Below, piece by piece: positions 22,982-52,431 of a stretch of DNA of 64,000 bases. Source of the DNA: an uncultured Gammaproteobacteria bacterium (GTDB lineage Bacteria > Patescibacteriota > Patescibacteriia > Magasanikbacterales > GWA2-37-8); the NCBI GenBank assembly GCA_964407865.1, contig CAYOXC010000003.1:12760-76759 (forward strand), in the 5' to 3' direction. The notes beneath the pieces were generated by a model. The model ran no database searches and had not been told where the DNA came from. It saw only the letters and a program-made list of their open reading frames with translations. Every line of letters starts with the position of its first letter. The stretch's first letter is position 1. Made by a program: the position numbers and the translations under genes.

Positions 22982-23262
22982 AATTTTTCTATTGCTTTAT
23001 GTTAGCAGAAAATGATGTTTTTTGCTAATTAACGTGTAAAATGAAAAAACCTCGGATAAGGAGCTTGAAAAAGAGTGGAGTTATTATAGTCATTTGGAAA
23101 GAGGGGTTTATTTACGCAACCGACGTATCAAAAAATCGAAGGTTGTGAGTACGGATGAATGAGAACCTGCCTGTCGGTAGGCAGGCCATCAACTTACAGC
23201 TTACCCGAGCAGGAAGGCTTTTCAGAGAAAAAATGTCGCTCACAAAAAATAAGAATATTTCG

Positions 23263-23335
23263 TGCGCCTGGATGGATTTGAACCATCGACTTCCACCTTA
23301 TAAGGGTGGCACTCTAACCGCTGAGTTACAGGCGC
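23263..23335 (-). tRNA. tRNA-Ile with the unusual anticodon UAU
   Basis: Minus-strand read GCGCCTG TA ACTC AGCGGTTAGAGT G CCACC CTTATAA GGTGG AAGTC GATGG TTCAAAT CCATC CAGGCGC A gives a canonical cloverleaf. Anticodon positions 34-36 read TAT. Confidence 0.65.
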
Positions 23336-38157: not shown

Positions 38158-41100
38158 ATGCTTGGAAAATCAAAAAAATTTGGTTTAGGATTTATTGCAG
38201 CAGTAGTTGTTTTTGTCTCTCTGTTTGGGGCGGTTTTTTTAGCACCTCAGAAAGCGCAAGCCCAGATGGCTGTTTACGTTGTTCAAAACCCGTATGAAGA
38301 TACTAGATCTATAATTGAAAAAATCAAAGACGAAGGCCTCCTCATGGTTATGTCAGCCATTATGAATGGCCTGAATTATTTTACCAATAAAATCGCCTAT
38401 GACATGGGTGTTTGGCTGGCTTCTGGCGATTGGGGGCAGGGCCCATTTGCTTCTGGCGAGAGTTTTGGCAATTATCTGGCGCAAACAGCCGGCGATTCTT
38501 TGGGTGAAGCACTCGGTTCTTTAAGCGAAAGCTTAGGCCTAAACCTCTGCGATTTGCCGGATATTCGCTTGGATTTATTGCTTCAGCTCGGTTTTCATTT
38601 TAATTATGGCCCTCCCACGCCAAAGTGTTCTTTTCAGCAGTTAAAGGCCGCTTATAATGTGGACAACATCCGTTCGCAGTATGCTTCTGTTCAAGGATTG
38701 ACCAGTCGAGTTAGTTTGGGTGTACAGGTTTCAGATTCGGATTTAGGTGTTTGGTTAAAATCAAAAGAAACCATTGATACCATGGCTTGGGAACAGCAAA
38801 CAGGCGCCTCGCTTGATCGCCAGGAAGGCGATGGAATATTTCCAATGTCAGAAATTATTTCGGGAAAGACCACTGTTCCGGCCACTGTAATGAGAGATGA
38901 GTGGAATGCTAAGTCAGCGGCAGCGGAAAAAAAAGGCAGGGACGCGGATAAAACCGCCATGCTTGGCGCGGCCTTGCAAAAAGGCGGAGTTTCACTTGCT
39001 TTAAATACTGTTTCAACATTTGTAAATACTTTACTTGGTACAGTTTTGAACAATTTTCTTACCGAAGGTCTTTTGCCAGGCGGAGCAAAAGTATGTAACC
39101 CGGGCTTAAGCATCAGTGGAGTTGGTTGGGATCAGTGCGATGAGTCAGATACGGCAGAATATCTTGCCGGCAGCTACTATGGTGCCGGCAGTACTGGCGG
39201 ACAGAGGCGAGCGGCCCAGGAGCTTTTTAGCGAATATCTTGTGCCTAAAATTAAAACAGTGGATAACTATAATATTTTAGGCACCATGGCCGATTGTTCT
39301 CCTGACAATCTTTTGCCCGAGGCTTGTACTATCGATCAGTCATTTTTGCAGATTTTACAGGAGGGCGATCAATCGGGTGAACCATTGACGATAAAACAGG
39401 CATTAGAGAAGGGTTATTTACATGCTGATTGGCGATTGATTCCAGAAAGCGATGCTGCCAATAACGAAAGTCAGGATTGCGCCTTAAAAGCATATTGTCA
39501 ACGTAATATTAAATTTTTGAGGTTAATGCGTATTTTACCGCTTGGTTTTGAAATAGCAGCAAGTGAATCGCCTGCGGACAATCCATGGACTTTAGGGGAT
39601 GTGGTTGATGCTTTTTACGATTCTGGTTCGGGGCATAGCAGTTCGAAGAGAGGTTTGATAAATCCATATTGGGTTATAAAATATCCAAAAACCAGATGCG
39701 GCAATTTAGCATATAGTCAAACCGCCATGAGTGGGATGCATTTACAGAGTTGCGTGGATATCCAGCATTGCGTCGCTTACAACAAAGACGGATCTTGTGC
39801 CGCTTGGGGATATTGTTTGCGCGAACAGCCGCTTTGGAAAATCAGTGCAAATTATTGCGACAAACAATATGCCACCTGTCGCAGTTTTGTTAGCGGAGAT
39901 GGCGACACTGGCTCATATTTACTTCGCACTTTGCAGGCCGAGGACTGCAATGCTGACAATGACGGTTGTACTCGCTATTCAAAATATAAATATTATTTAA
40001 CAGAATCAATTCAGGATTGGTTTGCCCTGGGTACTTATCAAGCAATTACAAACGGTCATATTTTTTATAATAATAGCCTATATTTTAATAAGAAATTACC
40101 CACTTGCGATGTCTCACAAGCTGGTTGCAACGCTTTTAAATTGGCAAGCGACCAAAATACAACAGTATTTTTGAAAAAAGCGCCGGATTATTTGGGTTGT
40201 TATGATGCAGATAGCAATGAAGATTCGGACAAACTGATGCTGTTGGTCAAAAAAATCCGTGATGGCATTAGCTGGCCAACAACTTTATCAGATTTAAATT
40301 TGATCAATCCACAGGATCCGGAAGCCTGCAATAATTACGCCCAGGTTTGTTTGCCAGAAGAAGAAAATTGCAATTATTACACCTCAGCTTTAACGGGCGA
40401 CACCGTGCCGGGCAAGTTTACCCCAGCCGTGGTTGAGGGTGGCCAAGTTACTTGGAATGATCAGTGCGACGCCAAATGCGTCGGTTATGCCGCTTACAGA
40501 GAAATGCCTTCAAATTATACCAACGGGCAAAGCATAGCTTACATTATTCCTTCATCAGGAAAGAGTTGTTCTGCCTCTGAGGCTGGTTGTAGCTCGTTTA
40601 CAAATTTATCTACTGAGCAGGGAGGGTTAGAAAATAACGAATATTTTTCATATTTGCGTCTTTGTGCTCTGCCCGATCAAAACATACAGCGAAATTACAC
40701 AGTTTATGAAAGTTCCGAATCAGGCGGATACCAAATAAAAACTTATACACTGGTTAAAAACAACAGCAATGAAGGTCCGAAACAGATTTTCCGTGACCAG
40801 CAGGAATACAATAAATTTTCCGCTTTGTGTAATTCAACCGTATATGCTAATGGTACGGCCGATCCAGATTGCCACCAGTTTATAGATGGAAACGGTGGAG
40901 TGCATTATGCCCTTTTATCAAAAACCATTGTCGTTAGTGATCAATGCACTCCGTATCGTTTGAACAACACCGAATTAGTACCTTACGGAACGCAACTCCG
41001 ATGTCCGTTTGATTTTGACAACAGCGCCAGTGACAAAAGGACCGGTACTTATACGGTTGAGTTTAAGAATAACTCCTGCTATTACATGGGCTTTACCGGT

Positions 41101-44100
41101 AATACAGGCGGAGCGGGCGATAGTATTTCCTGTACCAGTGATGTTGAGACTTGTCAGGCATATAAAGGCAATGCCGGTTATAATGTCCGTACATTATATA
41201 GCGAAAATTTTGAAGGCGGTGAACTTGAGGGTTGGAATGATGTAAGTTCGAATGTGGATACCAGTCTTTCAGCTGAATCAACTCAAATTGACGGCCATTC
41301 AATGAAAATAGCGGCAACGGATATTTCTTATAGTTCGGTTGGTGTTTATAACGAAGAGCCTTTGCTCATGCTTCAAGGTAAACAGTATATGGTTTCTTTC
41401 TGGGCGAAAGGCACTTTAGATATTTCTGAAATCGGTTTTATGTCTGGTGAAACAAATTATCCACTGGAAGATACACAGGTTCAGCCAACGGGTGTATGGC
41501 GTAATTATTCATTTGGACCATTTGATTATGAAGATATTTTTGCGGGCGGCCCAGCAAGTGATGAAATGGCTACGACTTATTTAAATTTTAAACTTGGTCA
41601 GGCAGGGGCTACAACAGATAATTTGTTTATCGACAATCTAAAAGTAACAGAAGTCGCCGATTATCTTTATCTGGTAAAAAATTCTTTATCCGTCGATCCA
41701 ATCTGCGACAGTTCCCCCAACGACAATTTGCCGGGCGAGGCTCTTGGTTGTATGGCCTACAAAACGCCGGCTGGCACAACATTTAATCTGGTTAATTTTA
41801 GCTATCTTTGCCGCGAAGCTGCTGTCGGTTGTACTGCGGTTTTAGACACCTACAACACTCCAGATGATCCGGATTATCGGGTTCACAATATCTGGCTTAA
41901 AGGCACTTCTGGAAATTTAGCTACTGTCACCGTAGAAGAAAAAACTTATTCTTGTCAGGTACCGGTTGGTGAAGCTGGCTGTTATGTTAATATGACTGGT
42001 ATAAAAAGCATGCATAGCCTGGAATTGCCAACAAAATTAGAATTTAAAAATTCTACCGTGGTTATCCATGCTGACACGCCAACTTCTTCACCAATATATC
42101 TGGTAGCAAACAAAGGTTCAAGTTGTAAGGCGGAAAATATGGGTTGCGAATTGGTTGGAAGATCAACACCGAGCATGTCTGGCTTGTCATACTACGCCGA
42201 TATTGGTTTGGGCACAGATTTACAACACCATTATGAAACATTTGATGAGGTGGCGATAAAGAACGATCCGGCATTGTATAGCTCAACTTTGTGCCAGGCA
42301 GAAGCCGTAGGTTGTAAAACCTGGTCTTCAGGTGAAAGCGCTTATTATTTTAAAGATCCAAAGAAGATCGGCAATCTGGTCTGTGAATACAAGGAAGAGT
42401 TTTATCCTCCTCAGCTTGATGTAATAACTGTTTGGAATCCATTATTGGGAATTGATGTTCCAGTTGTCCTTGGTTTAGAAGGTTCAGCCCAGCCGTTTTC
42501 CGGTTGGGCCTGGAAAGATGTTGGTACATGTTCTGTCGGTGATACCACTTATCCTATGGGCAAATATTGCAATTCAGATGCTGACTGCTCGGTTGCGGAT
42601 TCAGATATTACTGGAAAATGTTTATTTAAAGGCGCCATTCCTTGTTATCCAAACATAAAAGACAACGCACACACCCCTCCTGAATACCAAATTATCTCAT
42701 ACGGAACGACCAATCTGTATAAAGGTTATGCCGGAGAGTGTCCGGCCGAGCAGTCAGGCTGTTCACAGTTTGTAGATCACAGCTCTTCGCTAGGAGAAAA
42801 TAAAAAGTGTCTGATAACCGGGAAAAAATGTGATTTTGATAGTGATTGCAATGAAGCAGAAAATGACAAATGTGCGGCAAATTATATGAGCGCTTATTAT
42901 TTGATTGAAAACCAAAAACTCGATGTTTTGCAGGCGGCTTGCAATGGTAAAGTTAGTCAAGCCGAAGGCTGTGTCCTTTTGGATAAAACCTCCAATCCAA
43001 ACAAATACTGGAATGCGGCTGAAAGCTATAGCGCTTCTGTTGCAGACAATGAAGGCATGGTTACCCCTGTATCAAATACATCCAATGATTCCAACATCAT
43101 TATGAAAGTCGTCCATGACCGTGAGTGCGCCGAATGGGCTTATTGTGATTTGAAACAAACCTTTGAAAATGAAGATACCGGCGAAGAAGAAGAGCGCTGT
43201 TACCATCTCGGAGCGTGCGACAAAGCCGGTATTACACAACCAATGGCCGGTGTGGCGCCGAAAGAATGTGGTCATCCTTTGACTGATTGGGACATGAAAA
43301 ATAAGGAATTAACGATTAGTCAGTACCGTTCTTTTATTGGGAGTTGGGATTCAAAAGATTTTTCCGGTTATTCAATGTATAGCACTTTCCAGGTGCCGGA
43401 TCTTACAGTTAGATATTTTGGATCAGACGATATACCGCGCTTAGTCAACGTTAATGAAATGTATAGTTTTTATTCTCCCTGTTCAGTTAGTGATAAATGC
43501 GCCCAAGGAAACACCGGCGCTTCTTGCGGTCCTTCCGGTTATACAGGTACATGCATAAACGGAGAGTGTATGAGCGCTTTGTGGAACGGCAACCCTGAAT
43601 CATCAAGAAAATTGGCTTGCCGAGCATACGCTGAACAGGATGCCCCGTTTGATGATCATGTTTTATCAAGTGGAGATGAAAATGTTGAAGTTTATAAAGA
43701 AGGTTATGAAGGGGTAAATCTATGTTATTCAGAAGGTGGTAATCCGGTAAGTTGTGACGCTTATATGAATGGAGGCACAACGGTTCAATGTCAGTATCGA
43801 AAAATAAAAACTTCCGGAGGCATAGTTTACAAACAGACTGATGAAGTGTTGGAAGGAAATTTTATTTGTAGCGACGGGGTCAATAAAGGCAATTATTGTG
43901 ATGATTTAGAAGACTCAGGTACAGATTGCGCCGGTGGCAGTTGTTCACAAATACAGAGTATTCAGGTGAATCAAAATATGATGGGCTATTGCATAGACTG
44001 GGACAAACGCCATCGCATAAACGGCACGGCTGAAACTGCTTGTATGGCTTGGTGGCCGATTGATACACCTCCTGGTACACCTATTTTTTGGGAAACCGAT

Positions 44101-46512
44101 GAAAACGCCGGTTATGAGGTGGGCGAAAAAAAGGACCGCTTTATATGTTTGGAAAATATTCCGCTTATTAAAAAAAATCACCCGAATGTTGCATTTGGTG
44201 TTGGGACTGGAAATGCGAACGATTTTCCCGCAACTTTACCAAATGACATGTATTTTAAGAGGGCAGATCCGTGGGTGCCATCATCAATAAGAGATTTACT
44301 TGATACCCCTGTTTATGTGCGGAATATTCCAACAAACGCTATTCTGATCGGCTGCAATCATCGTAATGAACTTGATAATTGGGATATGCTTTATTACAAT
44401 GATATCGAAGCTTCTGAAGGATGGTATTGCCCGATAAATACTCGTAATACGTATGTAGATGATGTTTCCCAGGCTTATTGCGACGGCGGTAATGAGGACG
44501 GGTGCAAAAATAATGAGGATTGGTGGTGGAACGGCAATAACAATCGGTGGTTAAATGACTCCAACACAACATATATCCACATGAATGAAATTGAACGTAT
44601 AGATGTAGTGATAGATAAAGATACCGGTAACAACAATGCGCCAGTAAGCGGAGGAACAGTGAGTTTTATACGCGATATTGTCGATGCTGATGAGGAAAGA
44701 TCTTTTACTTTGCTGGAATCAACTTGGATGTCAAAGAAGGACGGTGTCGGGACTACATATTATACATCAAAATCGGATTTGGAAAATTTATGTGGAGATG
44801 GCGAGGATTGGTTGGCTTGGACGTGGGAAGCCAGGCTGGCTGGTCACCCGGGCAATTGGCTTACACAGTGGCTGGAAGACGAAAGTACAGTCGATGGAAA
44901 GTTGGCTATTGCCAAAGAAGGTATTTGCTTGGATGAATATAAAAATGTTTCCCATGATTTTGACGACGGTAAAAGAATTGTCGGTGTTCGAGTTGTTTTC
45001 GATGATCAGAATTATTTTAGAGGCATTTGGATAAATGGCGAAGATGATGACGCCTCTGGCGCTATTGACCTGGGGTTTTTCTTCGTCATCCATTTTACTC
45101 ATGGAAAGTGCAATAAATTTGCCCAAGTTTCGACAAGCGATAGCTCAAATAAATTTGCCTTCAAACCATACACTAATAACATGAAAACCGGAAGGACCTC
45201 GGTAGACGAAGAATGGTATGATAGTTCGAGAATCTATCGTACTGGTCGAACTCCTGATATAAACGGCGGGGGGTGGGGTTTAGCCATGAATGAGGCAGGA
45301 TCATATATAAATCCGTCAAGTAAAAATGTTACTTTTGTTAATCCCTTTACAGCCTATCCCGGTGGCTGGGATTTTACATTTTCTCAGAGTGGAAGCTTAG
45401 AAAGTAATTACGATATTACCGGATATAATGCTGGCATTCCGCTTCTTACAACTTATATTAAAGCACACGGATTAACCTCTGACGCACCAGACTATATACT
45501 TGTTGATCAGTCATATTTTGAATATGGTTCTCCAAGTGATTTTAATAATAAACCATACGGCGATTTGCTAGAAAATATGTATGCTAAAAATTATAATTTT
45601 TGGCGTATGACTCAAGATTCTGGTCACGCATCTGGTTATGAGTCGTATCATTCACCAGACGACGCGGCTAATCCAACTTTGGCGCAAGCCCTTGGCCGAT
45701 CTGTTTATCCTCCGATGATTGCCGCGCCGACAGATAGTGGTAGTTGGGAAGAGGGTGCCATATCGATGAAAAATCAAACTTCCGGAAATATATATCTTTT
45801 ATCGGGCTCGCAAGTAACAATGAAATTTTACGCCTGGGCGCATAATCATCAGATGCCTCTTCGCAGAGTAATCGCCGATAAAGGCGATGGTTTGACAGTT
45901 GATACCGGCATGAACGACTCACTGGGTAATAGAAAATACAAATGCACCAGCAGTGGTATTTGTGGTGATGACAACTACTCAACTCAATTTCCATGTACTG
46001 GTAATTCAGATTGCTCGCCGGTTGATCCGGGGTATTGGGGGACTGGACTTGGTTCCAATTCATGTGACACATCAGATATTACCGACTCTATGAGTTTTGG
46101 CAACACCGACGATACCGGTTGCAAAGCAGAGCCGTGGGAGTTCACTATGGATTATATTTGTCCGGGTGGAGCTGGCGGGATGGAAATTGTTGATAATCCC
46201 GGTGACGACCCATATACTCCTGTTCCTTATGGTATTGATTGGGATTATATAGAAAGTGAATGGCATGAAGTGCCGTATGTTTGTGTCGCTCAGCCCAGAG
46301 CATATGCTCTAGACAACTGGGGCTGGTGCGCTAGTCGGCCGACTCCCGGCGGTTGCGGTTCGGAAAATTTATACATAGACGGGTATGGTTGTTATGGGGA
46401 TACAGTCACCAATCTGTGTGACCCAGGAAGCGGTAAGCCATGGGTTCATTATGGTGGTAAGGTGATTGTAATACCGCTTTTAGGCGATACGCCCGATACT
46501 TGTTTACCTTAA
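38158..46512 (+). CDS. Giant (2784-aa) Cys-rich secreted surface protein with a CBM4/9-like carbohydrate-binding / concanavalin-like module
   Basis: N-terminal signal/TM. There are hundreds of Cys in spaced patterns. The segment ENFEGGELEGWNDVSS...MVSFWAKG...NLFIDNLKV resembles CBM_4_9 jelly-roll modules. Confidence 0.6.
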   Translation: MLGKSKKFGLGFIAAVVVFVSLFGAVFLAPQKAQAQMAVYVVQNPYEDTRSIIEKIKDEGLLMVMSAIMNGLNYFTNKIAYDMGVWLASGDWGQGPFASGESFGNYLAQTAGDSLGEALGSLSESLGLNLCDLPDIRLDLLLQLGFHFNYGPPTPKCSFQQLKAAYNVDNIRSQYASVQGLTSRVSLGVQVSDSDLGVWLKSKETIDTMAWEQQTGASLDRQEGDGIFPMSEIISGKTTVPATVMRDEWNAKSAAAEKKGRDADKTAMLGAALQKGGVSLALNTVSTFVNTLLGTVLNNFLTEGLLPGGAKVCNPGLSISGVGWDQCDESDTAEYLAGSYYGAGSTGGQRRAAQELFSEYLVPKIKTVDNYNILGTMADCSPDNLLPEACTIDQSFLQILQEGDQSGEPLTIKQALEKGYLHADWRLIPESDAANNESQDCALKAYCQRNIKFLRLMRILPLGFEIAASESPADNPWTLGDVVDAFYDSGSGHSSSKRGLINPYWVIKYPKTRCGNLAYSQTAMSGMHLQSCVDIQHCVAYNKDGSCAAWGYCLREQPLWKISANYCDKQYATCRSFVSGDGDTGSYLLRTLQAEDCNADNDGCTRYSKYKYYLTESIQDWFALGTYQAITNGHIFYNNSLYFNKKLPTCDVSQAGCNAFKLASDQNTTVFLKKAPDYLGCYDADSNEDSDKLMLLVKKIRDGISWPTTLSDLNLINPQDPEACNNYAQVCLPEEENCNYYTSALTGDTVPGKFTPAVVEGGQVTWNDQCDAKCVGYAAYREMPSNYTNGQSIAYIIPSSGKSCSASEAGCSSFTNLSTEQGGLENNEYFSYLRLCALPDQNIQRNYTVYESSESGGYQIKTYTLVKNNSNEGPKQIFRDQQEYNKFSALCNSTVYANGTADPDCHQFIDGNGGVHYALLSKTIVVSDQCTPYRLNNTELVPYGTQLRCPFDFDNSASDKRTGTYTVEFKNNSCYYMGFTGNTGGAGDSISCTSDVETCQAYKGNAGYNVRTLYSENFEGGELEGWNDVSSNVDTSLSAESTQIDGHSMKIAATDISYSSVGVYNEEPLLMLQGKQYMVSFWAKGTLDISEIGFMSGETNYPLEDTQVQPTGVWRNYSFGPFDYEDIFAGGPASDEMATTYLNFKLGQAGATTDNLFIDNLKVTEVADYLYLVKNSLSVDPICDSSPNDNLPGEALGCMAYKTPAGTTFNLVNFSYLCREAAVGCTAVLDTYNTPDDPDYRVHNIWLKGTSGNLATVTVEEKTYSCQVPVGEAGCYVNMTGIKSMHSLELPTKLEFKNSTVVIHADTPTSSPIYLVANKGSSCKAENMGCELVGRSTPSMSGLSYYADIGLGTDLQHHYETFDEVAIKNDPALYSSTLCQAEAVGCKTWSSGESAYYFKDPKKIGNLVCEYKEEFYPPQLDVITVWNPLLGIDVPVVLGLEGSAQPFSGWAWKDVGTCSVGDTTYPMGKYCNSDADCSVADSDITGKCLFKGAIPCYPNIKDNAHTPPEYQIISYGTTNLYKGYAGECPAEQSGCSQFVDHSSSLGENKKCLITGKKCDFDSDCNEAENDKCAANYMSAYYLIENQKLDVLQAACNGKVSQAEGCVLLDKTSNPNKYWNAAESYSASVADNEGMVTPVSNTSNDSNIIMKVVHDRECAEWAYCDLKQTFENEDTGEEEERCYHLGACDKAGITQPMAGVAPKECGHPLTDWDMKNKELTISQYRSFIGSWDSKDFSGYSMYSTFQVPDLTVRYFGSDDIPRLVNVNEMYSFYSPCSVSDKCAQGNTGASCGPSGYTGTCINGECMSALWNGNPESSRKLACRAYAEQDAPFDDHVLSSGDENVEVYKEGYEGVNLCYSEGGNPVSCDAYMNGGTTVQCQYRKIKTSGGIVYKQTDEVLEGNFICSDGVNKGNYCDDLEDSGTDCAGGSCSQIQSIQVNQNMMGYCIDWDKRHRINGTAETACMAWWPIDTPPGTPIFWETDENAGYEVGEKKDRFICLENIPLIKKNHPNVAFGVGTGNANDFPATLPNDMYFKRADPWVPSSIRDLLDTPVYVRNIPTNAILIGCNHRNELDNWDMLYYNDIEASEGWYCPINTRNTYVDDVSQAYCDGGNEDGCKNNEDWWWNGNNNRWLNDSNTTYIHMNEIERIDVVIDKDTGNNNAPVSGGTVSFIRDIVDADEERSFTLLESTWMSKKDGVGTTYYTSKSDLENLCGDGEDWLAWTWEARLAGHPGNWLTQWLEDESTVDGKLAIAKEGICLDEYKNVSHDFDDGKRIVGVRVVFDDQNYFRGIWINGEDDDASGAIDLGFFFVIHFTHGKCNKFAQVSTSDSSNKFAFKPYTNNMKTGRTSVDEEWYDSSRIYRTGRTPDINGGGWGLAMNEAGSYINPSSKNVTFVNPFTAYPGGWDFTFSQSGSLESNYDITGYNAGIPLLTTYIKAHGLTSDAPDYILVDQSYFEYGSPSDFNNKPYGDLLENMYAKNYNFWRMTQDSGHASGYESYHSPDDAANPTLAQALGRSVYPPMIAAPTDSGSWEEGAISMKNQTSGNIYLLSGSQVTMKFYAWAHNHQMPLRRVIADKGDGLTVDTGMNDSLGNRKYKCTSSGICGDDNYSTQFPCTGNSDCSPVDPGYWGTGLGSNSCDTSDITDSMSFGNTDDTGCKAEPWEFTMDYICPGGAGGMEIVDNPGDDPYTPVPYGIDWDYIESEWHEVPYVCVAQPRAYALDNWGWCASRPTPGGCGSENLYIDGYGCYGDTVTNLCDPGSGKPWVHYGGKVIVIPLLGDTPDTCLP

Positions 46513-46637: not shown

Positions 46638-47198
46638 CTATCGTATGTAGGTAAAGACCTCGAAATCATCGGGTGCCGATGAATATACTTTTTTTAAAAA
46701 AAGGTTGACCCCATCTGAGTAGATGGTTAATACTATACCCGTGTCTTCGTCAATGTACTCGAGAGGAAGAGAATTACCTTCCATTGTTGCCGTGAACGCG
46801 GCTCCATCGCCACTGGGTGTAGAAGAGCAAATGTCTCCTGTAACACTGGTGACGTTCATTGTATTGCTGTCGGTAATCCTGGTCCATTCGCCTTGAATGT
46901 CGAAGCAGTACTCGCCCTCTTCTGGGTCGGCGTCCGTGTCCGGGCCGTCTCCGCTCTTCAGGCACTCGCAGTAGTCCTCGGTGTCGGTGTCCGTGTCGCT
47001 ATCGCTGTCGGAATCCGTGTCCGAGTCAGTATCGCCGTCGGTGTCGCTGTCGCTGTCGGCATCGCTGTCCGCGTCCGTGTCGCCGTCGCTGTCGCAGTCG
47101 TCGCCGATGCAGTCGTCGTCGCCCTCGTCGCACGCAGCGAGAGAGAACATGAGAACGGTGAACAGAGCCACGAGCACGATATTCATTTCTTTCTTCAT
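46638..47198 (-). CDS. GC-rich lipoprotein-like secreted protein with (D-S/T)n repeats
   Basis: 186 aa; signal peptide ending LAAC (lipobox-like); long [28 protein letters not shown] repeat; markedly higher GC than the neighbours; paralogous to 60336..60989. Confidence 0.5.
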   Translation of the reverse strand: MKKEMNIVLVALFTVLMFSLAACDEGDDDCIGDDCDSDGDTDADSDADSDSDTDGDTDSDTDSDSDSDTDTDTEDYCECLKSGDGPDTDADPEEGEYCFDIQGEWTRITDSNTMNVTSVTGDICSSTPSGDGAAFTATMEGNSLPLEYIDEDTGIVLTIYSDGVNLFLKKVYSSAPDDFEVFTYIR

Positions 47199-47274
47199 CT
47201 TTCATTCTCCTTTTTTTCTCCGCGCTCGGCGCGGTATCGTTTTGTGGTTGTGCCCTTTCGGGCGTACCCTGGAT

Positions 47275-47417
47275 AGCCCAGAGTTTTGGATGTATTGGTC
47301 TCATTTCCTCTTTCGGCTTAGCCGGTAAATATGTTCTGTAGGAAATGTTTTCAAGTTTCTTTTAACAAGCTCTGTCAGAATTGCTCGATTTCATCCGAAT
47401 ATATCCAAAACTCTGGG
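47275..47417. repeat. 20-nt inverted repeat pair in the GC-shifted noncoding region upstream of the radical-SAM gene
   Basis: tagcccagagttttggatgtat (47275..47296) vs atatccaaaactctgggcta (47398..47417), enclosing ~100 nt. Confidence 0.5.
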
Positions 47418-47734
47418 CTACACTGTTATATCCCCGTTAAATACTCGCTTCGCGAGCCTCGTCACATGGACGAATTTAACAGGGTAAACCTGCCTTTAAG
47501 CTGTTTTTCGCTATTCCGCGAAATTCAGCACTTTGTAATGAACTACTCATATTTTAGGCCAATATTAGGCACTAAACAAGTCATTATAGCACAATTTGAC
47601 CCTTTTGTCAAGGGGTGTTTGCAGCGAATGTGAGTGTATGAGATTGTTCCTTTTAGGATGATGAATTGACATTTCAGCGCTTAAGTGCGTACCATACATA
47701 TAGTTAGCATTCTTTGACAATTCGGAGGTGATCA

Positions 47735-48772
47735 ATGCCAAATTTAATACAAGGCGCTTGGCTGACAGTGAATCGGAAATGTAATTTGCGGTGTCGTTGG
47801 TGTTATGCTGAAGCGCCGGCTGACAAACATGAAGAAGACATGACTTTTGGTTTGGCTGAATCCCTGGTTGGTTTTTTGGCCCGCCTGGGTGTGGGCCAAG
47901 TTATTGTTCTTGGCGGTGAGCCGTTGTTGTGGCAATATTTATCTGACTTGTCTCAAGTGGCCGAAGTGAATAATCTCAAAACAGTTCTAGTGACGAACGG
48001 AATAATGTTTAGCAGATTGCCAGTTGTTGAAATGGTAAAAAGAAGTAAATTTCACGCCATTGATCTGTCTGTTAAGGCAGATAGCGATGCCGCTTATAAA
48101 GAGATAACCGGCGTTAAAGCTTATTCGCGTTTGGTGCGGGGAATGCGAAATTTATCGCGCGAGAATGTTGATTTTACTGCGTCAATAACAGTCAACAGGT
48201 TGAACGCGCATTGTATTGCAGAAATGGTAAAAATGGCAGTAGAAAACGGGGCTCGACGAGTTACTCTTCAATTTTGCGCTGCGACGATGGATGATTTTCG
48301 TTTTTCTAGCAAATACATGCTCGAGCCATTTGTGGCAGCTCAAAGCGTAGTTGAGGCGTATAATAAATTAAGACCAGCTATCAAGAAAAAAGTTGTCATT
48401 GAGCAGTCGTTACCTTTTTGCGTCTGGCCGAAGGATTTTCTCGAACATTTGAAAGAATCCGGCAGTATTTTTTCCGGTTGCCATGTTTTTAAACGCAATG
48501 GGCTTATATTCAGTACGCGAGGGGATGTATTGCCATGTAATTGCCTACATGAAATTATACTGGGAAGATATGGAAACGAGTTTGACGATCCGGCAAGCTT
48601 TGAAAGCTTTTGGCTTGACGCTCAGGTAGTTGAATTCTATAATAAATTAATCAGCTACCCATCGCGTAGGTGTATGGATTGTGAGGATTATATGGAATGC
48701 GGCGGCGGCTGCCCTTTACAATGGTTTGTGTTTAGACCGCGGGATGTCATAGCCCGCAGAAAGAAGAGGTGA
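47735..48772 (+). CDS. Radical SAM enzyme with a C-terminal SPASM domain (peptide-modifying maturase type)
   Basis: 345 aa; CNLRCRWC (Cx3Cx2C) at residues 16-23; C-terminal CMDCEDYMECGGGCP (Cx2Cx5Cx3C SPASM signature); GGAGGTGA RBS 5 nt before the ATG. Confidence 0.8.
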   Translation: MPNLIQGAWLTVNRKCNLRCRWCYAEAPADKHEEDMTFGLAESLVGFLARLGVGQVIVLGGEPLLWQYLSDLSQVAEVNNLKTVLVTNGIMFSRLPVVEMVKRSKFHAIDLSVKADSDAAYKEITGVKAYSRLVRGMRNLSRENVDFTASITVNRLNAHCIAEMVKMAVENGARRVTLQFCAATMDDFRFSSKYMLEPFVAAQSVVEAYNKLRPAIKKKVVIEQSLPFCVWPKDFLEHLKESGSIFSGCHVFKRNGLIFSTRGDVLPCNCLHEIILGRYGNEFDDPASFESFWLDAQVVEFYNKLISYPSRRCMDCEDYMECGGGCPLQWFVFRPRDVIARRKKR

Positions 48773-48774
48773 GT

Positions 48775-48945
48775 TTGAAGAAAGCGATAAAAATGTTGAG
48801 CAGGCGTCATGCTACGCGAATCACCCCCAAACGCCGTCCAACCGGCCTGGCACTGAAAAAGAGCCGTGAACCAAGCTATGGTGACTGCGGCGTATGCAAT
48901 GTTTGTTGCTTCGGCGGCGGGCATTGCCAGTGTCACTGTTCTTAG
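48775..48945 (+). CDS. Cys-rich 56-aa peptide, a candidate RiPP precursor (SCIFF/ranthipeptide-like), translationally coupled to the rSAM gene
   Basis: Manual translation gives MKKAIKMLSRRHATRITPKRRPTGLALKKSREPSYGDCGVCNVCCFGGGHCQCHCS. The TTG start is 5 nt after AGAGG and 2 nt after the rSAM stop. Eight Cys are clustered in the last 21 residues. It is below the 60-aa track cutoff. Confidence 0.5.
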   Translation: MKKAIKMLSRRHATRITPKRRPTGLALKKSREPSYGDCGVCNVCCFGGGHCQCHCS

Positions 48946-48987
48946 GGCTAACAGCCCGTTTCGGCTCCTGACCGTGTTTCTCGCAAC

Positions 48988-49488
48988 ATGCGGGCAGGAG
49001 CCATAATTTTTAATATGTCTATTTCATTAAATTTTCGTGCAAACAATTCAGATGAAGAGCGCAAGATGATTCAGTTCATTTCCGGTAAAAAAAAGTGGTT
49101 TGATAAGAACGGTTATAAATACATTCTTCCTTCAGAGAAGAGGGGGTTACATTACGATAAGAAAAAATATCAAATAATCATTAGTAAAATAAAAAATAAC
49201 TGGCTATCTCGCGACGGGTCGATTTTTTTGAAAAAGGTTTCGGTTTTTTTCAATATTAATTACAGGAAAAAAATCTTAGTTAATATAACCATGTATGGCA
49301 CCGGCGGCATGTATGATGTAAATTCGGGCAGTATTTTTATTAATCCAAAATTAGGGTATGATTCAATAAGTGTAATAAAGCACGAAATTATCCATTTGTT
49401 TCTGGAAAAATACGTAAGACAATTCGCAGTCAGTCACGAAAAAAAGGAAAAAATGGTGCAAAGCATATTCTTGCTTCTTGGGAGCTGA
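48988..49488 (+). CDS. Hypothetical protein with an HExxH motif (HEIIH); true start probably at an internal Met
   Basis: 166-aa ORF; low GC unlike the adjacent island; HEIIHLF near the C-terminus. Confidence 0.3.
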   Translation: MRAGAIIFNMSISLNFRANNSDEERKMIQFISGKKKWFDKNGYKYILPSEKRGLHYDKKKYQIIISKIKNNWLSRDGSIFLKKVSVFFNINYRKKILVNITMYGTGGMYDVNSGSIFINPKLGYDSISVIKHEIIHLFLEKYVRQFAVSHEKKEKMVQSIFLLLGS

Positions 49489-49698
49489 ACAGCATAGGGG
49501 GTTTTTGCTAATTTTGCAGTTCGTATAAAAAAAGACGGTTTATACAAAACCGTTTTTTGTTTTGGAAAAATAGAATTTGATTCATTAAATCATTGTTTAT
49601 TTAATGTTTTTACTTGTGGATATAACTGACTAATCTATTTTGTTTTAGCAAAGATATTGTGATATAATAATAAAGTAAATATAAGCCAAATAGGCTTT

Positions 49699-52431
49699 AT
49701 GCTGAATTCCCTCAAAGAAAAAGGGAGACTCATTTTGAATATTCTCAAACCGCGACGGCGGTTGAATTTAGCGTCAGCACTTCTTCTCGGAGCAGGCGCT
49801 ATTTTTGCGTTGTTTATATATGGCGCATCAGCACTGGCTGAAGGTGCTAGTTCTGGTTCCATCGCACAGTCAATTGTTCAGGCGATTTCTGAAGGTATTC
49901 TTTGGATTGCTTCCATATTCAATTCTATTACAATATTTATTGTTAATTTTGTTGTTGAAATTGCATCTTACAATAATTATATTAATTCCGGAGCGGTAAC
50001 TCTAGGCTGGGTTTTAGTCAGAGATGTGACCAATATGCTTTTTGTCATTATTTTAATGGTGATAGCTTTTGGTACTGTGCTAGGTCTGGAACAATATGAA
50101 TGGAAAAAGATGTTGGTAAAATTTGTTTTGGCGGCTATTTTAGTAAATTTCTCGCGCATTATTTGTGGCATCATTATAGACGCAGCTCAGGTTTTTATGA
50201 TGACATTTATTTCCGGCGTGGCTGCGATTGCCGGGGGCAATTTAATGCAAGCTTTGGGTATGCAACAGATTAATTCTTTTTCCGCACAGACCAATCCTGA
50301 AGCTATGACTTATGCAAATATTTTTGCCTCTTCCATCATGATAATGATTTTTTCTTTCGCCGCCATGGTGATCATCGGGGCATATCTGGTAGTACTGATG
50401 GGTCGTGTGGTGGCGCTTTGGATATTGATTATACTTTCACCTCTTGCTTTTGTTCTGGGTGTTATTCCAAAGTTTCAATCATACGCCAGTGAATGGTGGC
50501 AACAATTCACCAACAATGTTATTTCCGGGCCAGTATTGGCATTTTTCTTATGGTTGTCGTTTGCGGTGGCAGGAAGCGGCGGAGTACACAATGCTGAATT
50601 TGGCGGAAGCAATGTTGCTTATCCTTTAAGCAATACTCAAGCTGAAATGGATCAAGCCACCAGGGATAGTGGGGAGGGCAGTACTTTATTGCTTGAAATA
50701 TTACAAATGGAAAATTTAGCCAGTTTTATTATTGCCGCCGCTTTGCTTATGGCCGGAGTCAAAGTTACCCAGCGGTTGGCAGGTGTTGGCGCTGGCGTGC
50801 TTGGTGCTGCAGCTGGCGCGGCGACTAAATTTGCCACAGTGGCCGGCGGAGTAGCCGCGGCCAGGTGGGCTGTTGGAGCGGCCGCTACTGGAGCGAAGAA
50901 AGTTGGTAAAGGAGTTTTAATGAAAGCGCCTTTGGTTGGCGGTGAAGCTTGGATGAGGCGAGGCAGGGGGTTAAAAGCACAAGTAGGAATGCGATACCAG
51001 GATTTAGCCCAAAAGTATGAAGCCAAAACTGCTGCCGGGCTTAAAAAAGCAGAAGGTCAAAAAGGGGTGGGCGCGGCATTAAAGCGTGGTTTTTTTAGAA
51101 CCGCATTAACACCGGCGCAAAAAGAAAAAAGAACCGCCTTTCTTGAGGGAGCTGCAAAGGCGGCCAAAGATGAGCGTATGGAGAAGTTGGGTATGGGCGG
51201 AACCGATATAGGTAAATTAGCTGGTTCACGTTTGATGCGGGCGGAAATAGCCAAACAAGAAGCGGAACGCGACAAAAAAAGAGGTCTTGGTTTTGCCAAA
51301 GCTCAGGAGTATCGCCGTGTTGGAAAGCATGATTTGGCCGATATGGTAGATGCCGGGGTGTCAGCTGAAATATTTGAAGAGGATACGAAAAAATATGCGA
51401 ATTTAGATTTTGCCGGAAAAGTAAATTTAGCCCGTGAAATGGCATCAACAACACAGAAAATAAGAGATAATTTAATGTCTGCAGTTCAGTCCGGAGATGA
51501 AAAAATGATAGAGGCATCAAAGAGTGCCCTGAAAGAACAGACAATAAAAAATATGAATTTTCAGGCCATGGCATCCTCAGACAGAGAAACCAGAGAAGCT
51601 GTTGATGGTGTTTTCTTAAAAAATTCTGGCTATAGCGGAGATATTGGGACTGAAAATTCGGCGGCCATGGAAATGTCAAAAATGACCGGGTTAGACGCAG
51701 CTAATATTGATCATCAAAGCATATTAAAAGATTTACAGAATAATTTGGAAAAGGATTCAAATTTTCAAACTTCTGCAAAAAATTTAGCAAAAGCGGAATT
51801 TGGTTTGTATTCGCAAACTGGAGATATGCGTTACGCTAGCGCTTTTAGTCAAGGGGTTTCAAAAGATTCAGCAACCGGAAGAATGAAAGTAGTTTATGGC
51901 ATGGGCGCAAATGTTGGCACGCACGATTTAGAAGGCAACGAACGCACTGAAGCGCGTGATATGTTTACCACTGATAAAGGAAAAATAGAATATTTATCCA
52001 CAACAGCTCGTCCGAATTTCCAGCAAAATGTAAATGCGGAGATTATTATGAAGCAAAAAGATCGGGCGACAGGAGAGGTAAGACAATTAGACGGCAAGCA
52101 GATGGAAGCTATGAGCGGATATTTAAGCACTGTTTCGCCACAAATGATGCGTCGTGCTTTTTCACCAAAGTTTGTGACAGATATAAATAAATTAGCTAGC
52201 GAGGGGAAAATGAGCTCCGAACAAGCATCAGAGTTTTTAAATACGATTACTTCCAAGATGACAAACGACCAACAAAAAGCTGAATTGCGCCGAGTGCTTA
52301 AAGATTTAGACAAATTAGCCGGAGGTAGTACTACCGGAGGTGGTGCGGTCGGCCGCGGCGGTGGAACAGAAGAAGATGAAATTGAGGCAGCGGACGCGGA
52401 TGAAGGGTTTCCTGGTGGGAGAAGAACTTAA
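49699..52431 (+). CDS. Large polytopic membrane protein, VirB6/TrbL-like N-terminal domain with a long Ala/Gly/Lys-rich helical C-terminal region
   Basis: 910 aa; at least 6 TM in the first 300 aa with Trp-containing loops (WWQQF); C-terminal low-complexity region. Confidence 0.4.
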   Translation: MLNSLKEKGRLILNILKPRRRLNLASALLLGAGAIFALFIYGASALAEGASSGSIAQSIVQAISEGILWIASIFNSITIFIVNFVVEIASYNNYINSGAVTLGWVLVRDVTNMLFVIILMVIAFGTVLGLEQYEWKKMLVKFVLAAILVNFSRIICGIIIDAAQVFMMTFISGVAAIAGGNLMQALGMQQINSFSAQTNPEAMTYANIFASSIMIMIFSFAAMVIIGAYLVVLMGRVVALWILIILSPLAFVLGVIPKFQSYASEWWQQFTNNVISGPVLAFFLWLSFAVAGSGGVHNAEFGGSNVAYPLSNTQAEMDQATRDSGEGSTLLLEILQMENLASFIIAAALLMAGVKVTQRLAGVGAGVLGAAAGAATKFATVAGGVAAARWAVGAAATGAKKVGKGVLMKAPLVGGEAWMRRGRGLKAQVGMRYQDLAQKYEAKTAAGLKKAEGQKGVGAALKRGFFRTALTPAQKEKRTAFLEGAAKAAKDERMEKLGMGGTDIGKLAGSRLMRAEIAKQEAERDKKRGLGFAKAQEYRRVGKHDLADMVDAGVSAEIFEEDTKKYANLDFAGKVNLAREMASTTQKIRDNLMSAVQSGDEKMIEASKSALKEQTIKNMNFQAMASSDRETREAVDGVFLKNSGYSGDIGTENSAAMEMSKMTGLDAANIDHQSILKDLQNNLEKDSNFQTSAKNLAKAEFGLYSQTGDMRYASAFSQGVSKDSATGRMKVVYGMGANVGTHDLEGNERTEARDMFTTDKGKIEYLSTTARPNFQQNVNAEIIMKQKDRATGEVRQLDGKQMEAMSGYLSTVSPQMMRRAFSPKFVTDINKLASEGKMSSEQASEFLNTITSKMTNDQQKAELRRVLKDLDKLAGGSTTGGGAVGRGGGTEEDEIEAADADEGFPGGRRT

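What the first reader, a model, noticed from the sequence alone, without database searches (positions are those of the whole stretch)
46638..48950. GC-rich island encoding a radical-SAM/SPASM maturase followed by an unannotated 56-aa Cys-rich peptide (candidate RiPP system, SCIFF/ranthipeptide-like)
The ORF 47735-48772 has the Cx3Cx2C rSAM motif plus a Cx2Cx5Cx3C SPASM signature. Two nucleotides after its stop, a TTG (48775) sits 5 nt after AGAGG. It opens a 56-codon ORF that the track missed: MKKAIKMLSRRHATRITPKRRPTGLALKKSREPSYGDCGVCNVCCFGGGHCQCHCS. This has a basic leader and eight Cys in the final 21 residues. The rSAM-SPASM-plus-Cys-rich-precursor architecture is established for sactipeptides, ranthipeptides and SCIFF, although here the order is maturase then precursor. 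The segment from 46638 to about 48950 is markedly GC-shifted relative to the window (by eye ~45-60% versus ~38%). It is bounded by a 20-nt inverted repeat pair (47275/47398), consistent with horizontal acquisition.
Basis: partly seen in the sequence, partly recalled or inferred. Interest (0 to 1): 0.85.

Follow-up and report, generated by a model that had tools for sequence, protein, structure and literature searches.

The report
Radical-SAM peptide operon with Cys-rich precursor
This is a real three-gene operon (a radical-SAM/SPASM enzyme, an unannotated 56-residue cysteine-rich peptide and a small zinc-protease-like protein) from a widespread but uncurated family of modified-peptide systems found mainly in ultra-small Patescibacteria; the chemistry and the role of the product are unknown.

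Summary
The core observation holds. ORF 47735-48772 is a radical-SAM/SPASM enzyme. A 56-codon ORF (48775-48945) follows it and encodes a basic leader plus a Cys-rich tail with 7 Cys, not 8.

The peptide gene is conserved. In 146 distinct related loci, 99 carry a same-strand Cys-rich small ORF next to the enzyme (chance about 0.07). A leader-only HMM hit 79 of 8,841 small ORFs, and all 79 have Cys-rich tails. Four close pairs show pN well below pS with no Cys change.

It encodes a 157-aa HExxH protein with a zincin fold. A promoter-like site and a terminator hairpin bracket the three genes.

Neither enzyme, peptide nor HExxH protein reaches any curated NCBIfam or Pfam family cut-off beyond the generic radical-SAM and SPASM models. 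The enzyme has no N-terminal extension where CteB and SuiB carry one.

The "GC island bounded by inverted repeats" reading fails. The GC excess comes from an unrelated Asp/Ser-repeat lipoprotein gene and from the peptide's own codons, and both repeat arms lie inside one intergenic spacer.

Best reading: a leader-guided RiPP system that probably installs thioether crosslinks. That chemistry is inferred, not shown.

The parts
47666..47695 (+). Promoter-like site (TTGACA, 18 nt, TACCAT), about 40 nt upstream of the rSAM ATG. A GGAGG Shine-Dalgarno sequence lies just before the ATG.
   Evidence: Consensus scan, 10 of 12 matches; sequence read directly. This is a consensus match only; function is not shown.
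47735..48772 (+). Radical-SAM/SPASM enzyme, 345 aa, with no N-terminal extension where CteB and SuiB carry one (the CxxxCxxC motif starts at residue 16). It is the putative peptide maturase.
   Evidence: PF04055 scores 65 bits against a cut-off of 29.5. The C-terminal 121 aa hit the SPASM domain model TIGR04085 at 32.4 bits against a cut-off of 27. Invariant Cys in 43 homologues: C16, C20, C23, C229, C249, C268, C313, C316, C322, C326. AF2 model pLDDT 90.6. Foldseek: anSME TM 0.70, plus CteB, SkfB, SuiB. Profile against PDB sequences: CteB 4e-20, SuiB 2e-19.
48775..48945 (+). Precursor peptide, 56 aa (58 aa from the alternative GTG at 48769). The leader is MKKAIKMLSRRHATRITPKRRPTGL..., and the core is CGVCNVCCFGGGHCQCHCS with 7 Cys.
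   Evidence: ORF and RBS read directly. Homologous leader-plus-Cys-rich-core ORFs sit next to the enzyme in 99 of 146 loci against about 0.07 expected. Sequences and alignment. Leader-only HMM: 79 hits among 8,841 small ORFs, all with Cys-rich tails. pN is well below pS with zero Cys changes in 4 close pairs.
49015..49488 (+). HExxH protein, 157 aa (166 aa from the ATG at 48988). Predicted minimal zincin/gluzincin-like metallopeptidase and candidate leader peptidase.
49529..49563 (+). Intrinsic-terminator-like hairpin (GACGGTTT-ATACA-AAACCGTC-like stem followed by a T run) that closes the three-gene unit. It is flanked by an A run, so it may act in both directions.
   Evidence: The fold of 49480-49560 shows a 12-bp hairpin followed by UUUUUUGU. 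Sequence. The scan lists the same stem on the minus strand.

Best explanation
Bases 47666-49563 form a self-contained three-gene RiPP operon.

The 56-aa product of 48775-48945 is a precursor peptide. Its N-terminal leader carries the family motif: a hydrophobic helix, then [RK]x[ST]T[GN][IV]xPxxxPxG. The leader would guide the C-terminal CxC-rich core into the radical-SAM/SPASM enzyme encoded just upstream.

The enzyme would use its SAM-binding [4Fe-4S] cluster to make 5'-deoxyadenosyl radicals, and its SPASM auxiliary cluster(s) to engage cysteine thiolates. It would install several intramolecular crosslinks in the core. Cys-to-carbon thioethers (sactionine or ranthionine type) are the most likely product.

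The downstream 157-aa HExxH zincin-like protein would then remove the leader.

Shown here: the genes, the motifs, the folds, and the conserved three-gene linkage with purifying selection on the peptide. Inferred: that the peptide is the enzyme's substrate, the thioether chemistry, the peptidase role, and any biological activity (antimicrobial, signalling or metal-binding).
For: - The enzyme is a radical-SAM/SPASM protein. Its closest solved relatives by sequence are the peptide maturases CteB, SuiB, SkfB and PqqE, and it has the SPASM/twitch fold.
- A peptide ORF with a Cys-rich tail is adjacent on the same strand in 99 of 146 distinct loci, against about 0.07 expected.
- A leader-only HMM finds 79 of 8,841 small ORFs. 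All 79 have Cys-rich tails, and about 20 of them are independent of the training set.
- The window peptide carries the leader motif.
- Close pairs give pN 0.10-0.12 against pS 0.28-0.55, with no Cys replaced.
- Cores have a median of 7 Cys in about 20 aa. CxC is the dominant spacing, and x is mostly Asp, Asn, Lys, Gln or Arg. Asp and Asn are acceptor residues in characterised ranthipeptides (my recollection for PapB and NxxcB; PMC10114670 names these as ranthipeptide enzymes but does not give the acceptor residues).
- The HExxH gene is conserved downstream and has a zincin fold.
- A promoter-like site and a terminator-like hairpin bracket exactly these three genes.
Against: - There is no experimental or expression evidence.
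- No curated maturase family is matched, so the chemistry cannot be transferred by homology.
- The terminal Cys of the canonical 7-Cys SPASM motif is absent in the whole family.
- The enzyme has no N-terminal extension where CteB and SuiB carry one and no separate RRE-like gene was noticed in the cassette, so how the leader is recognised is unexplained.
- No exporter or immunity gene is part of the conserved cassette, which is unusual for a secreted bacteriocin.
- About 20-30% of related loci show no recognisable precursor.
Confidence: 0.75

Rival explanations
1. The operon and precursor are the same, but the chemistry or the role is different. The enzyme might install something other than thioethers, such as C-C or C-O crosslinks, epimerisation, or Cys oxidation. 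Alternatively the product might be an intracellular metal-binding or redox peptide or cofactor: a post-translationally stapled, metallothionein-like molecule rather than a secreted antimicrobial.
For: - The core is 34% Cys and dominated by CxC, CxxC and CC spacings, the same pattern as metallothionein motifs (the metallothionein comparison is from general knowledge).
- No exporter or immunity gene is conserved in the cassette. In my recollection, the peptide plus rSAM-SPASM plus metallopeptidase layout without a transporter matches the cofactor pathways PQQ and mycofactocin.
- rSAM-SPASM enzymes are known to catalyse many reaction types besides thioethers (PMC10114670).
- No homology to any characterised thioether synthase reaches a family cut-off.
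Against: - Among characterised rSAM-SPASM systems, Cys-rich cores are overwhelmingly thioether substrates (PMC10114670, PMC10288494).
- The patchy distribution across unrelated phyla, including three paralogous loci in one Myxococcales MAG, looks like an accessory or competitive trait rather than a cofactor.
- Core sequences are hypervariable between close relatives apart from the Cys, which is more typical of bioactive peptides.
Confidence: 0.2
2. The small ORF is not the substrate. The enzyme would act on something else (a protein or a small molecule). The Cys-rich peptide would be an accessory Fe-S or metal chaperone, or simply a co-transcribed metallothionein.
For: - The top NCBIfam hits by score are cofactor enzymes (NirJ2, AhbD, MoaA, PqqE), although all are far below their cut-offs.
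- The best Foldseek matches include BlsE and anSME, which do not act on RiPP precursors.
Against: - A conserved leader-like N-terminal region joined to a hypervariable Cys-rich C-terminus is the RiPP precursor signature, not that of a chaperone.
- Some loci carry two precursor copies around one enzyme.
- A conserved zincin-like protein fits leader removal.
- anSME and cofactor families score 12-90 bits against cut-offs of 265-650.
Confidence: 0.04
3. The 56-codon ORF is a chance ORF, or a frameshifted remnant of the enzyme's C-terminus that would carry the missing last SPASM cysteine.
For: - The terminal SPASM Cys is missing from the enzyme.
- The small ORF overlaps or abuts the stop codon in another frame.
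Against: - All 43 aligned homologues end at the same place without that Cys.
- In other loci the peptide ORFs are separated from the enzyme by up to about 100 nt, lie upstream of it, lie after the HExxH gene, or lie on the other strand.
- The leader motif is conserved.
- Synonymous changes exceed non-synonymous ones.
Confidence: 0.01

Closest known systems
Ranthipeptide systems: SCIFF/CteB (thermocellin) and PapB (freyrasin)
   Same: An rSAM-SPASM maturase acts on a short precursor with a leader and a Cys-rich C-terminal core. CteB is the best PDB sequence hit (5wgg, E 4e-20). The PapB family profile aligns end to end with this enzyme (residues 10-327 against profile positions 7-317 of 330), so the domain layout is the same. 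Asp and Asn are abundant next to the Cys.
   Different: PapB NF047865 scores 55.5 bits against a cut-off of 340. No SCIFF enzyme or peptide family appears among the hits. The core pattern is an alternating CxC run, not six spaced Cys or CxxxD repeats. The leader motif is different. A dedicated HExxH protein is present. CteB carries an N-terminal extension that is absent here (the match starts at CteB residue 96); that this extension is an RRE domain is my recollection.
Sactipeptide maturases (StsB, SkfB, AlbA type)
   Same: These are rSAM-SPASM thioether synthases acting on Cys-containing cores. The StsA core has a CxCxC motif followed by Gly-rich sequence (PMC10288494). That loosely resembles CNVCCFGGGHCQCHC here and the Gly-rich cores of L041, L138 and L158.
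   Different: StsB NF045574 scores 48.9 bits against 625, and only over the rSAM half. SkfB TIGR04403 scores 44 bits against 300. The published compendium of such enzymes was built from RRE-associated proteins (PMC10288494), so an enzyme without an RRE would fall outside it.
Haft's in-silico Cys-rich rSAM systems: FibroRumin (TIGR04135/04136), GeoRSP (TIGR04303), ACGX-repeat
   Same: These are computationally defined pairs of an rSAM/SPASM enzyme with a Cys-rich peptide. GeoRSP is the second-best NCBIfam hit at 76.7 bits. One family peptide weakly hits FibroRuminTarg (E 0.04). Some Firmicutes members of this enzyme family sit next to ACGACGACG-repeat peptides (L020, L024, L025, L031).
   Different: All scores are far below the cut-offs: GeoRSP 76.7 against 400, and the FibroRumin rSAM 18.8 against 400 on the C-terminal domain. 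Two enzymes next to ACG-repeat peptides (L020 and L031) match no ACGX-system model at E 1e-20 or better.
anSME (anaerobic sulfatase-maturating enzyme)
   Same: It gives the best global structural superposition (TM 0.70). It has a similar size (about 360 aa), no N-terminal extension, and a SPASM domain with the Cx2Cx5Cx3C motif.
   Different: TIGR03942 scores 49.4 bits against a cut-off of 349. No sulfatase is nearby. A conserved small precursor with a leader sits alongside instead.
Minimal gluzincins and SprT/Wss1-like zincins (for the HExxH protein); alpha-KG-dependent HEXXH RiPP oxygenases as the alternative
   Different: No Pfam or NCBIfam family reaches significance. SprT PRK04351 scores 25.8 bits against a cut-off of 113. 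The protein is much smaller than the ChlH HExxH-domain chain (157 aa against 342 aa for 8s5f), and the peptidase folds score higher than the oxygenase fold.

Membership tests
Radical SAM superfamily | CxxxCxxC cluster motif and a match to PF04055 above the gathering score | tested here: met
   C16x3C20x2C23 is invariant in 43 homologues. PF04055 scores 65.1 bits against 29.5.
SPASM subfamily | A C-terminal SPASM domain model match | tested here: met
   TIGR04085 scores 32.4 bits against a cut-off of 27, E 9.7e-8, on residues 225-345. Pfam gives no hit for the C-terminal domain, PF13186 included, even at E up to 10.
SPASM subfamily | The full 7-Cys motif CX9-15GX4C, gap, CX2CX5CX3C, gap, C (motif quoted from my own knowledge) | tested here: inconclusive
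   C249x13G263x4C268 and C313x2C316x5C322x3C326 are present and invariant. The final C after the gap is absent in all 43 sequences. An extra invariant C229 and a nearly invariant C181 might substitute for it.
   PapB scores 55.5 bits against 340. No SCIFF maturase model is among the 25 best hits. The peptide has no NCBIfam or Pfam hit.
Sactipeptide maturases | The enzyme reaches a sactisynthase family cut-off and carries an N-terminal RRE | tested here: not met
   StsB scores 48.9 against 625 and SkfB 44.2 against 300. The rSAM motif starts at residue 16, so there is no room for an N-terminal RRE.
Sacti-/ranthipeptides (chemical class) | A Cys sulfur-to-carbon thioether in the mature peptide | not testable with these tools
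   This needs MS/MS, NMR or desulfurisation labelling of the modified peptide.
anSME / cofactor maturases (NirJ, AhbD, MoaA, PqqE, MftC) | The enzyme reaches the family cut-off, and the substrate protein or cofactor genes are nearby | tested here: not met
   anSME 49.4 against 349, NirJ2 88.3 against 500, AhbD 75.2 against 500, PqqE 74.3 against 381, MftC 56.5 against 265. No such partner genes are in the cassette.
QhpD | Homology to QhpD and an adjacent qhpC amine dehydrogenase gamma subunit | not tested
   No QhpD model appeared among the listed hits, and no dedicated comparison was run. No amine dehydrogenase genes were seen in the cassette.
ACGX-repeat and FibroRumin systems | The enzyme and the peptide reach the TIGR models | tested here: not met
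   The window peptide has no hit. One of 51 family peptides hits FibroRuminTarg at E 0.04. The FibroRumin rSAM scores 18.8 against 400. The two enzymes tested from ACG-peptide loci (L020, L031) give no ACGX-system hit at E 1e-20 or better.
RiPP biosynthetic cluster (generic) | A short precursor with a conserved leader and a variable core, genetically linked to its modifying enzyme | tested here: met
   Linkage in 99 of 146 loci. A conserved leader motif and a variable core with fixed Cys.
Zincin / gluzincin metallopeptidases (HExxH protein) | An HExxH helix plus a downstream Glu ligand on the next helix, and the zincin fold | tested here: met
alpha-KG-dependent HEXXH RiPP oxygenases | Homology to the HExxH-domain oxygenase family | tested here: not met

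The most novel reading that the evidence does not exclude
This may be the founding example of an undescribed RiPP class. The class would be defined by an rSAM-SPASM enzyme that lacks the N-terminal extension of CteB and SuiB, a dedicated mini-gluzincin, and precursors with a shared leader ([RK]x[ST]TG[IV]xPxxxPxG) and a metallothionein-like CxC core. It would be concentrated in Patescibacteria. Its product could be a densely stapled poly-thioether ladder with a new crosslink topology. Alternatively it could be a post-translationally modified metal-binding or redox peptide used by these ultra-small symbionts.
Probability: 0.3. Interest if true: 0.8.

Novelty: new variant of a known kind. Interest (0 to 1): 0.6.

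Why it matters
- Patescibacteria have tiny genomes and are usually reported to lack biosynthetic gene clusters. One MAG survey states that its Patescibacteria MAGs contained none (PMC11613949).
- A conserved three-gene peptide-modification cassette occurs in dozens of these lineages, and also in Firmicutes, Myxococcota and Nitrospirota. The enzyme family has 583 clusters at 50% identity. This shows a natural-product or signalling capacity that RRE-based genome mining would probably miss, because the precursor is unannotated and the enzyme has no room for an N-terminal RRE.
- The family offers a compact, testable system (345 + 56 + 157 aa) for two questions. How does an rSAM-SPASM enzyme recognise a leader without an RRE? 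What crosslink pattern can be written into an almost pure CxC core?
- It also flags an uncharacterised minimal zincin family as a likely RiPP peptidase.

Tried and rejected
- GC island and horizontal transfer: rejected. Per-gene GC and GC3 show no coherent island.
- Inverted repeat as a boundary: rejected. Both arms lie in one intergenic spacer. No Rfam family matches there.
- Frameshifted SPASM tail: rejected.
- Membership in curated families: tested and not met for NCBIfam and Pfam on the enzyme, the peptide, the 43-member enzyme alignment, the 51-member peptide alignment, and five Firmicutes enzymes, two of them (L020, L031) next to ACG-repeat peptides.
- A single-sequence word-indexed search with the HExxH protein found only itself. 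The profile search then worked.
- The exact look-up of the 166-aa protein returned no record, so the NCBI record name and the taxon of the window were not obtained. Patescibacteria is inferred only from which taxa carry the closest cassettes.
- Association between the PxxxPxG leader motif and presence of the HExxH gene: Fisher p = 0.009, but confounded by phylogeny and contig truncation, so it is not used as evidence.
- Eight literature searches found no description of this family. The library lacks many subscription papers, including large rSAM-RiPP surveys, so a prior description cannot be excluded.
- One peptide pair (L132/L139) was out of register and was excluded from the pN/pS comparison.
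Full report
**1. What is in the sequence**

- ORF 47735-48772 (+) encodes 345 aa with C16x3C20x2C23 and C313x2C316x5C322x3C326.
- Its TGA stop is at 48770-48772. AGAGG lies at 48765-48769. A TTG at 48775 opens a 56-codon ORF ending at 48945: MKKAIKMLSRRHATRITPKRRPTGLALKKSREPSYGDCGVCNVCCFGGGHCQCHCS.
- A GTG at 48769 overlaps the stop (GTGA) and would give 58 aa.
- The tail holds seven cysteines, not eight.
- The exact 56-aa (TTG-start) peptide sequence is absent from the 15-billion-protein collection, which fits its never having been called as a gene.

**2. The 'GC island bounded by inverted repeats' does not hold**

- The segment is 46.4% GC against 39.9% for the window (97th percentile).
- The peak (59% at 46800-47199) belongs to a minus-strand ORF, 46638-47198. 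This ORF encodes a lipoprotein-like protein: a signal peptide ending in LAAC, then a (D-S/T)n repeat written as a 12-18-nt tandem repeat. It is 53.8% GC with GC3 66.8%. It has no counterpart in any related locus.
- The rSAM gene is 43.5% GC (GC3 40.8%), like the flanking giant gene (42.6%), the 910-aa gene (43.3%), gyrB and uvrA.
- The third cassette gene is 32% GC. The peptide ORF is 53% because it is made of Cys, Gly, Arg and Pro codons.
- The inverted repeat (47274-47296 / 47398-47420, 23 nt, 96%) is real and unique in the window. Both arms lie in the 536-nt spacer between the lipoprotein gene and the rSAM gene, so it bounds nothing.

**3. The enzyme**

- Pfam reports PF04055 (65 bits) and Fer4_12 only.
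- The C-terminal 121 aa pass NCBIfam's SPASM domain model TIGR04085 (32.4 bits against 27). Pfam returns no family for that domain.
- No NCBIfam equivalog is approached. The best is NirJ2 at 88 bits against 500. Others: GeoRSP 77/400, PqqE 74/381, PapB 55.5/340, anSME 49/349, StsB 49/625, SkfB 44/300. The same holds for 43 homologues.
- A database search found about 44 clusters at E below 1e-52, all unnamed. Their alignment (A1) fixes C16, C20, C23, C229, C249, C268, C313, C316, C322 and C326, with C181 nearly invariant.
- The spacing C249x13Gx4C268 ... Cx2Cx5Cx3C matches the SPASM motif as I recall it. The terminal Cys of the seven-Cys motif is missing in every member.
- The rSAM motif begins at residue 16, so there is no N-terminal RRE domain.
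- The AF2 model is confident (pLDDT 90.6). It superposes on anSME (TM 0.70), BlsE, CteB, SkfB and SuiB.
- A profile search of PDB sequences ranks peptide maturases first: CteB 4e-20, SuiB 2e-19, SkfB 4e-18, PqqE 6e-17. anSME is at 1e-13.
- An exhaustive HMM search gives 583 representatives at E 1e-30 or better among 1.84 billion.

**4. The peptide gene is conserved with the enzyme**

- I fetched 160 related loci plus five by exact look-up.
- In 146 distinct loci, 99 have a same-strand ORF of 150 aa or fewer, with at least 4 Cys in its last 25 residues. In 83 loci it ends within 450 nt downstream of the enzyme gene, in 13 it lies just upstream, and in 3 both occur. The background is about 0.07 such ORFs per equivalent stretch.
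- The peptides are typically 45-65 aa. They share a leader: a short hydrophobic or basic helix, then [RK]x[ST]T[GN][IV]xPxxxPxG. They end in a core with a median of 7 Cys in about 20 residues.
- CxC is the dominant spacing (261 of 480 intervals). The residue x is Asp 34%, Asn 12%, then Lys, Gln and Arg.
- The window peptide (LSRRHATRITPKRRPTGL...) fits the leader motif.
- An HMM built only from the first 34 leader residues hit 79 of 8,841 small ORFs in these loci. Seventy-five were adjacent on the same strand, and the other four lay elsewhere in the same cassette. All 79 ended in Cys-rich cores, including about 20 ORFs not used for training.
- Four close pairs give pN 0.10-0.12 against pS 0.28-0.55, with no Cys replaced.
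The ORF is conserved in relatives, and the enzyme does not sit with anSME or cofactor maturases.

**5. A third gene belongs to the cassette**

- ORF 49015-49488 (157 aa; 166 aa from the ATG at 48988) has homologues directly downstream in many loci.
- In 61 of 112 loci with at least 1 kb downstream, an HE..H-containing ORF of 100-280 aa follows on the same strand.
- Loci lacking it are mostly from Firmicutes and other non-Patescibacteria MAGs.
- Invariant residues are G95, G98, H123, E124, H127, K144 and E145. This is HExxH plus a Glu 18 residues later, the gluzincin arrangement.
- No Pfam family matches. The 113 database relatives found are unnamed or called hypothetical protein, and those that carry an organism name come from Patescibacteria.

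**6. Operon structure**

- A TTGACA-18-TACCAT site lies at 47666-47695, about 40 nt before the rSAM ATG.
- A strong hairpin with a T run at about 49529-49563 follows the HExxH stop.
- The next gene has its own extended -10-like sequence.
- The unit is therefore 47666-49563: enzyme, precursor, HExxH protein.

**7. Mechanism**

- Shown: the motifs, the folds, the linkage and the selection.
- Inferred: the leader docks the precursor on the enzyme. The SAM-derived radical abstracts hydrogen from a core residue. A Cys thiolate, possibly presented on an auxiliary cluster, closes a thioether, and this is repeated along the CxC run. The HExxH protein then removes the leader.
- Thioethers are favoured for two reasons. 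Characterised rSAM-SPASM enzymes with Cys-rich cores make them (PMC10114670, PMC10288494). The inter-Cys residues are those I recall as acceptors in ranthipeptides.
- I put about 0.5 on thioethers specifically, and about 0.75-0.8 on the three genes being a RiPP system.
- No exporter or immunity gene is conserved. The core looks like a metallothionein. An intracellular metal-binding or cofactor-like product is therefore the main rival.

**8. Comparison and novelty**

- The system works like a sacti- or ranthipeptide system but fails every family membership test I could run.
- Its distinguishing features are the absence of the N-terminal extension that CteB and SuiB carry, a SPASM domain lacking the terminal Cys, a family-specific leader, CxC cores and a dedicated mini-zincin.
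- The large curated compendium of RiPP rSAM enzymes was built from RRE-associated proteins (PMC10288494), so it would probably not contain this family.
- Eight literature searches found no description. The library is incomplete, so I rate the finding as a new variant of a known kind rather than categorically new.

**9. Context**

- The window is chromosomal. It holds RNase P RNA, three tRNAs, RNase J, UvrA, GyrB and Sua5.
- The cassette sits between a 2,784-aa secreted protein and a 910-aa membrane protein, with a TraG/VirB4-like ATPase further downstream.
- I could not establish the organism. Relatives of the three-gene form are overwhelmingly Patescibacteria.

Noticed in passing
window 47274-47420 and 47583-47611: A 23-nt inverted repeat with a 101-nt loop lies in the spacer upstream of the rSAM gene. 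On the minus strand it folds with z = -6.4 and has no Rfam match. A perfect sigma-70 consensus (TTGACA-17-TATAAT with TG) on the minus strand at 47611-47583 would transcribe through it toward the lipoprotein gene. It may be a long structured 5' leader or a small mobile element.
   Followed up: partly
window 46638-47198 (-): A lipoprotein-like ORF (signal peptide ending in LAAC) with a (Asp-Ser/Thr)n tract encoded by 12-18-nt tandem repeats. Its GC3 is 66.8% against about 35% for housekeeping genes. It has no homologue in any related locus. It is the real source of the GC peak and may itself be foreign.
   Followed up: partly
window 23262-23335 (-): A tRNA-Ile with anticodon TAT (UAU), which to my knowledge is an uncommon way for bacteria to read AUA.
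   Followed up: no
window 38158-46512, 49699-52431, 56858-58726: A 2,784-aa secreted, Cys-rich giant protein, a 910-aa polytopic membrane protein and a TraG/VirB4-like P-loop ATPase flank the cassette. Together they suggest a type IV secretion-like or conjugative module.
   Followed up: partly
window 48963-49000: After the precursor stop codon, a hairpin pairs CUCCUG with CAGGAG. That sequence is the only Shine-Dalgarno-like element ahead of the HExxH start at 49015. This could attenuate HExxH translation. The fold z-score is only -2.0.
   Followed up: no
L004, L028 and 13 other loci; L050 and 11 others; L027, L004 and 3 others: Some related cassettes add a second, longer rSAM (about 435-460 aa; 15 loci), a polytopic membrane protein of about 528 aa (12 loci) and a response regulator (5 loci). 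This hints at extra tailoring and possible two-component regulation. None of these is present in the window.
   Followed up: partly
L020, L024, L025, L031; L039, L053, L079: Firmicutes members of the enzyme family lack the HExxH gene. They often have the precursor upstream, with ACGACGACG repeats or very long CDCDCD runs. The two of these enzymes that were scanned (L020, L031) match no curated ACGX-system rSAM model.
   Followed up: partly
L022, L023, L026: One Myxococcales MAG carries three paralogous enzyme-precursor loci. Their precursors have much longer leaders, about 95-111 aa.
   Followed up: no
window 34610-36409: A fusion of a Sua5/YrdC domain with a DUF4015 putative glycosyl-hydrolase domain in one 599-aa protein.
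   Followed up: no
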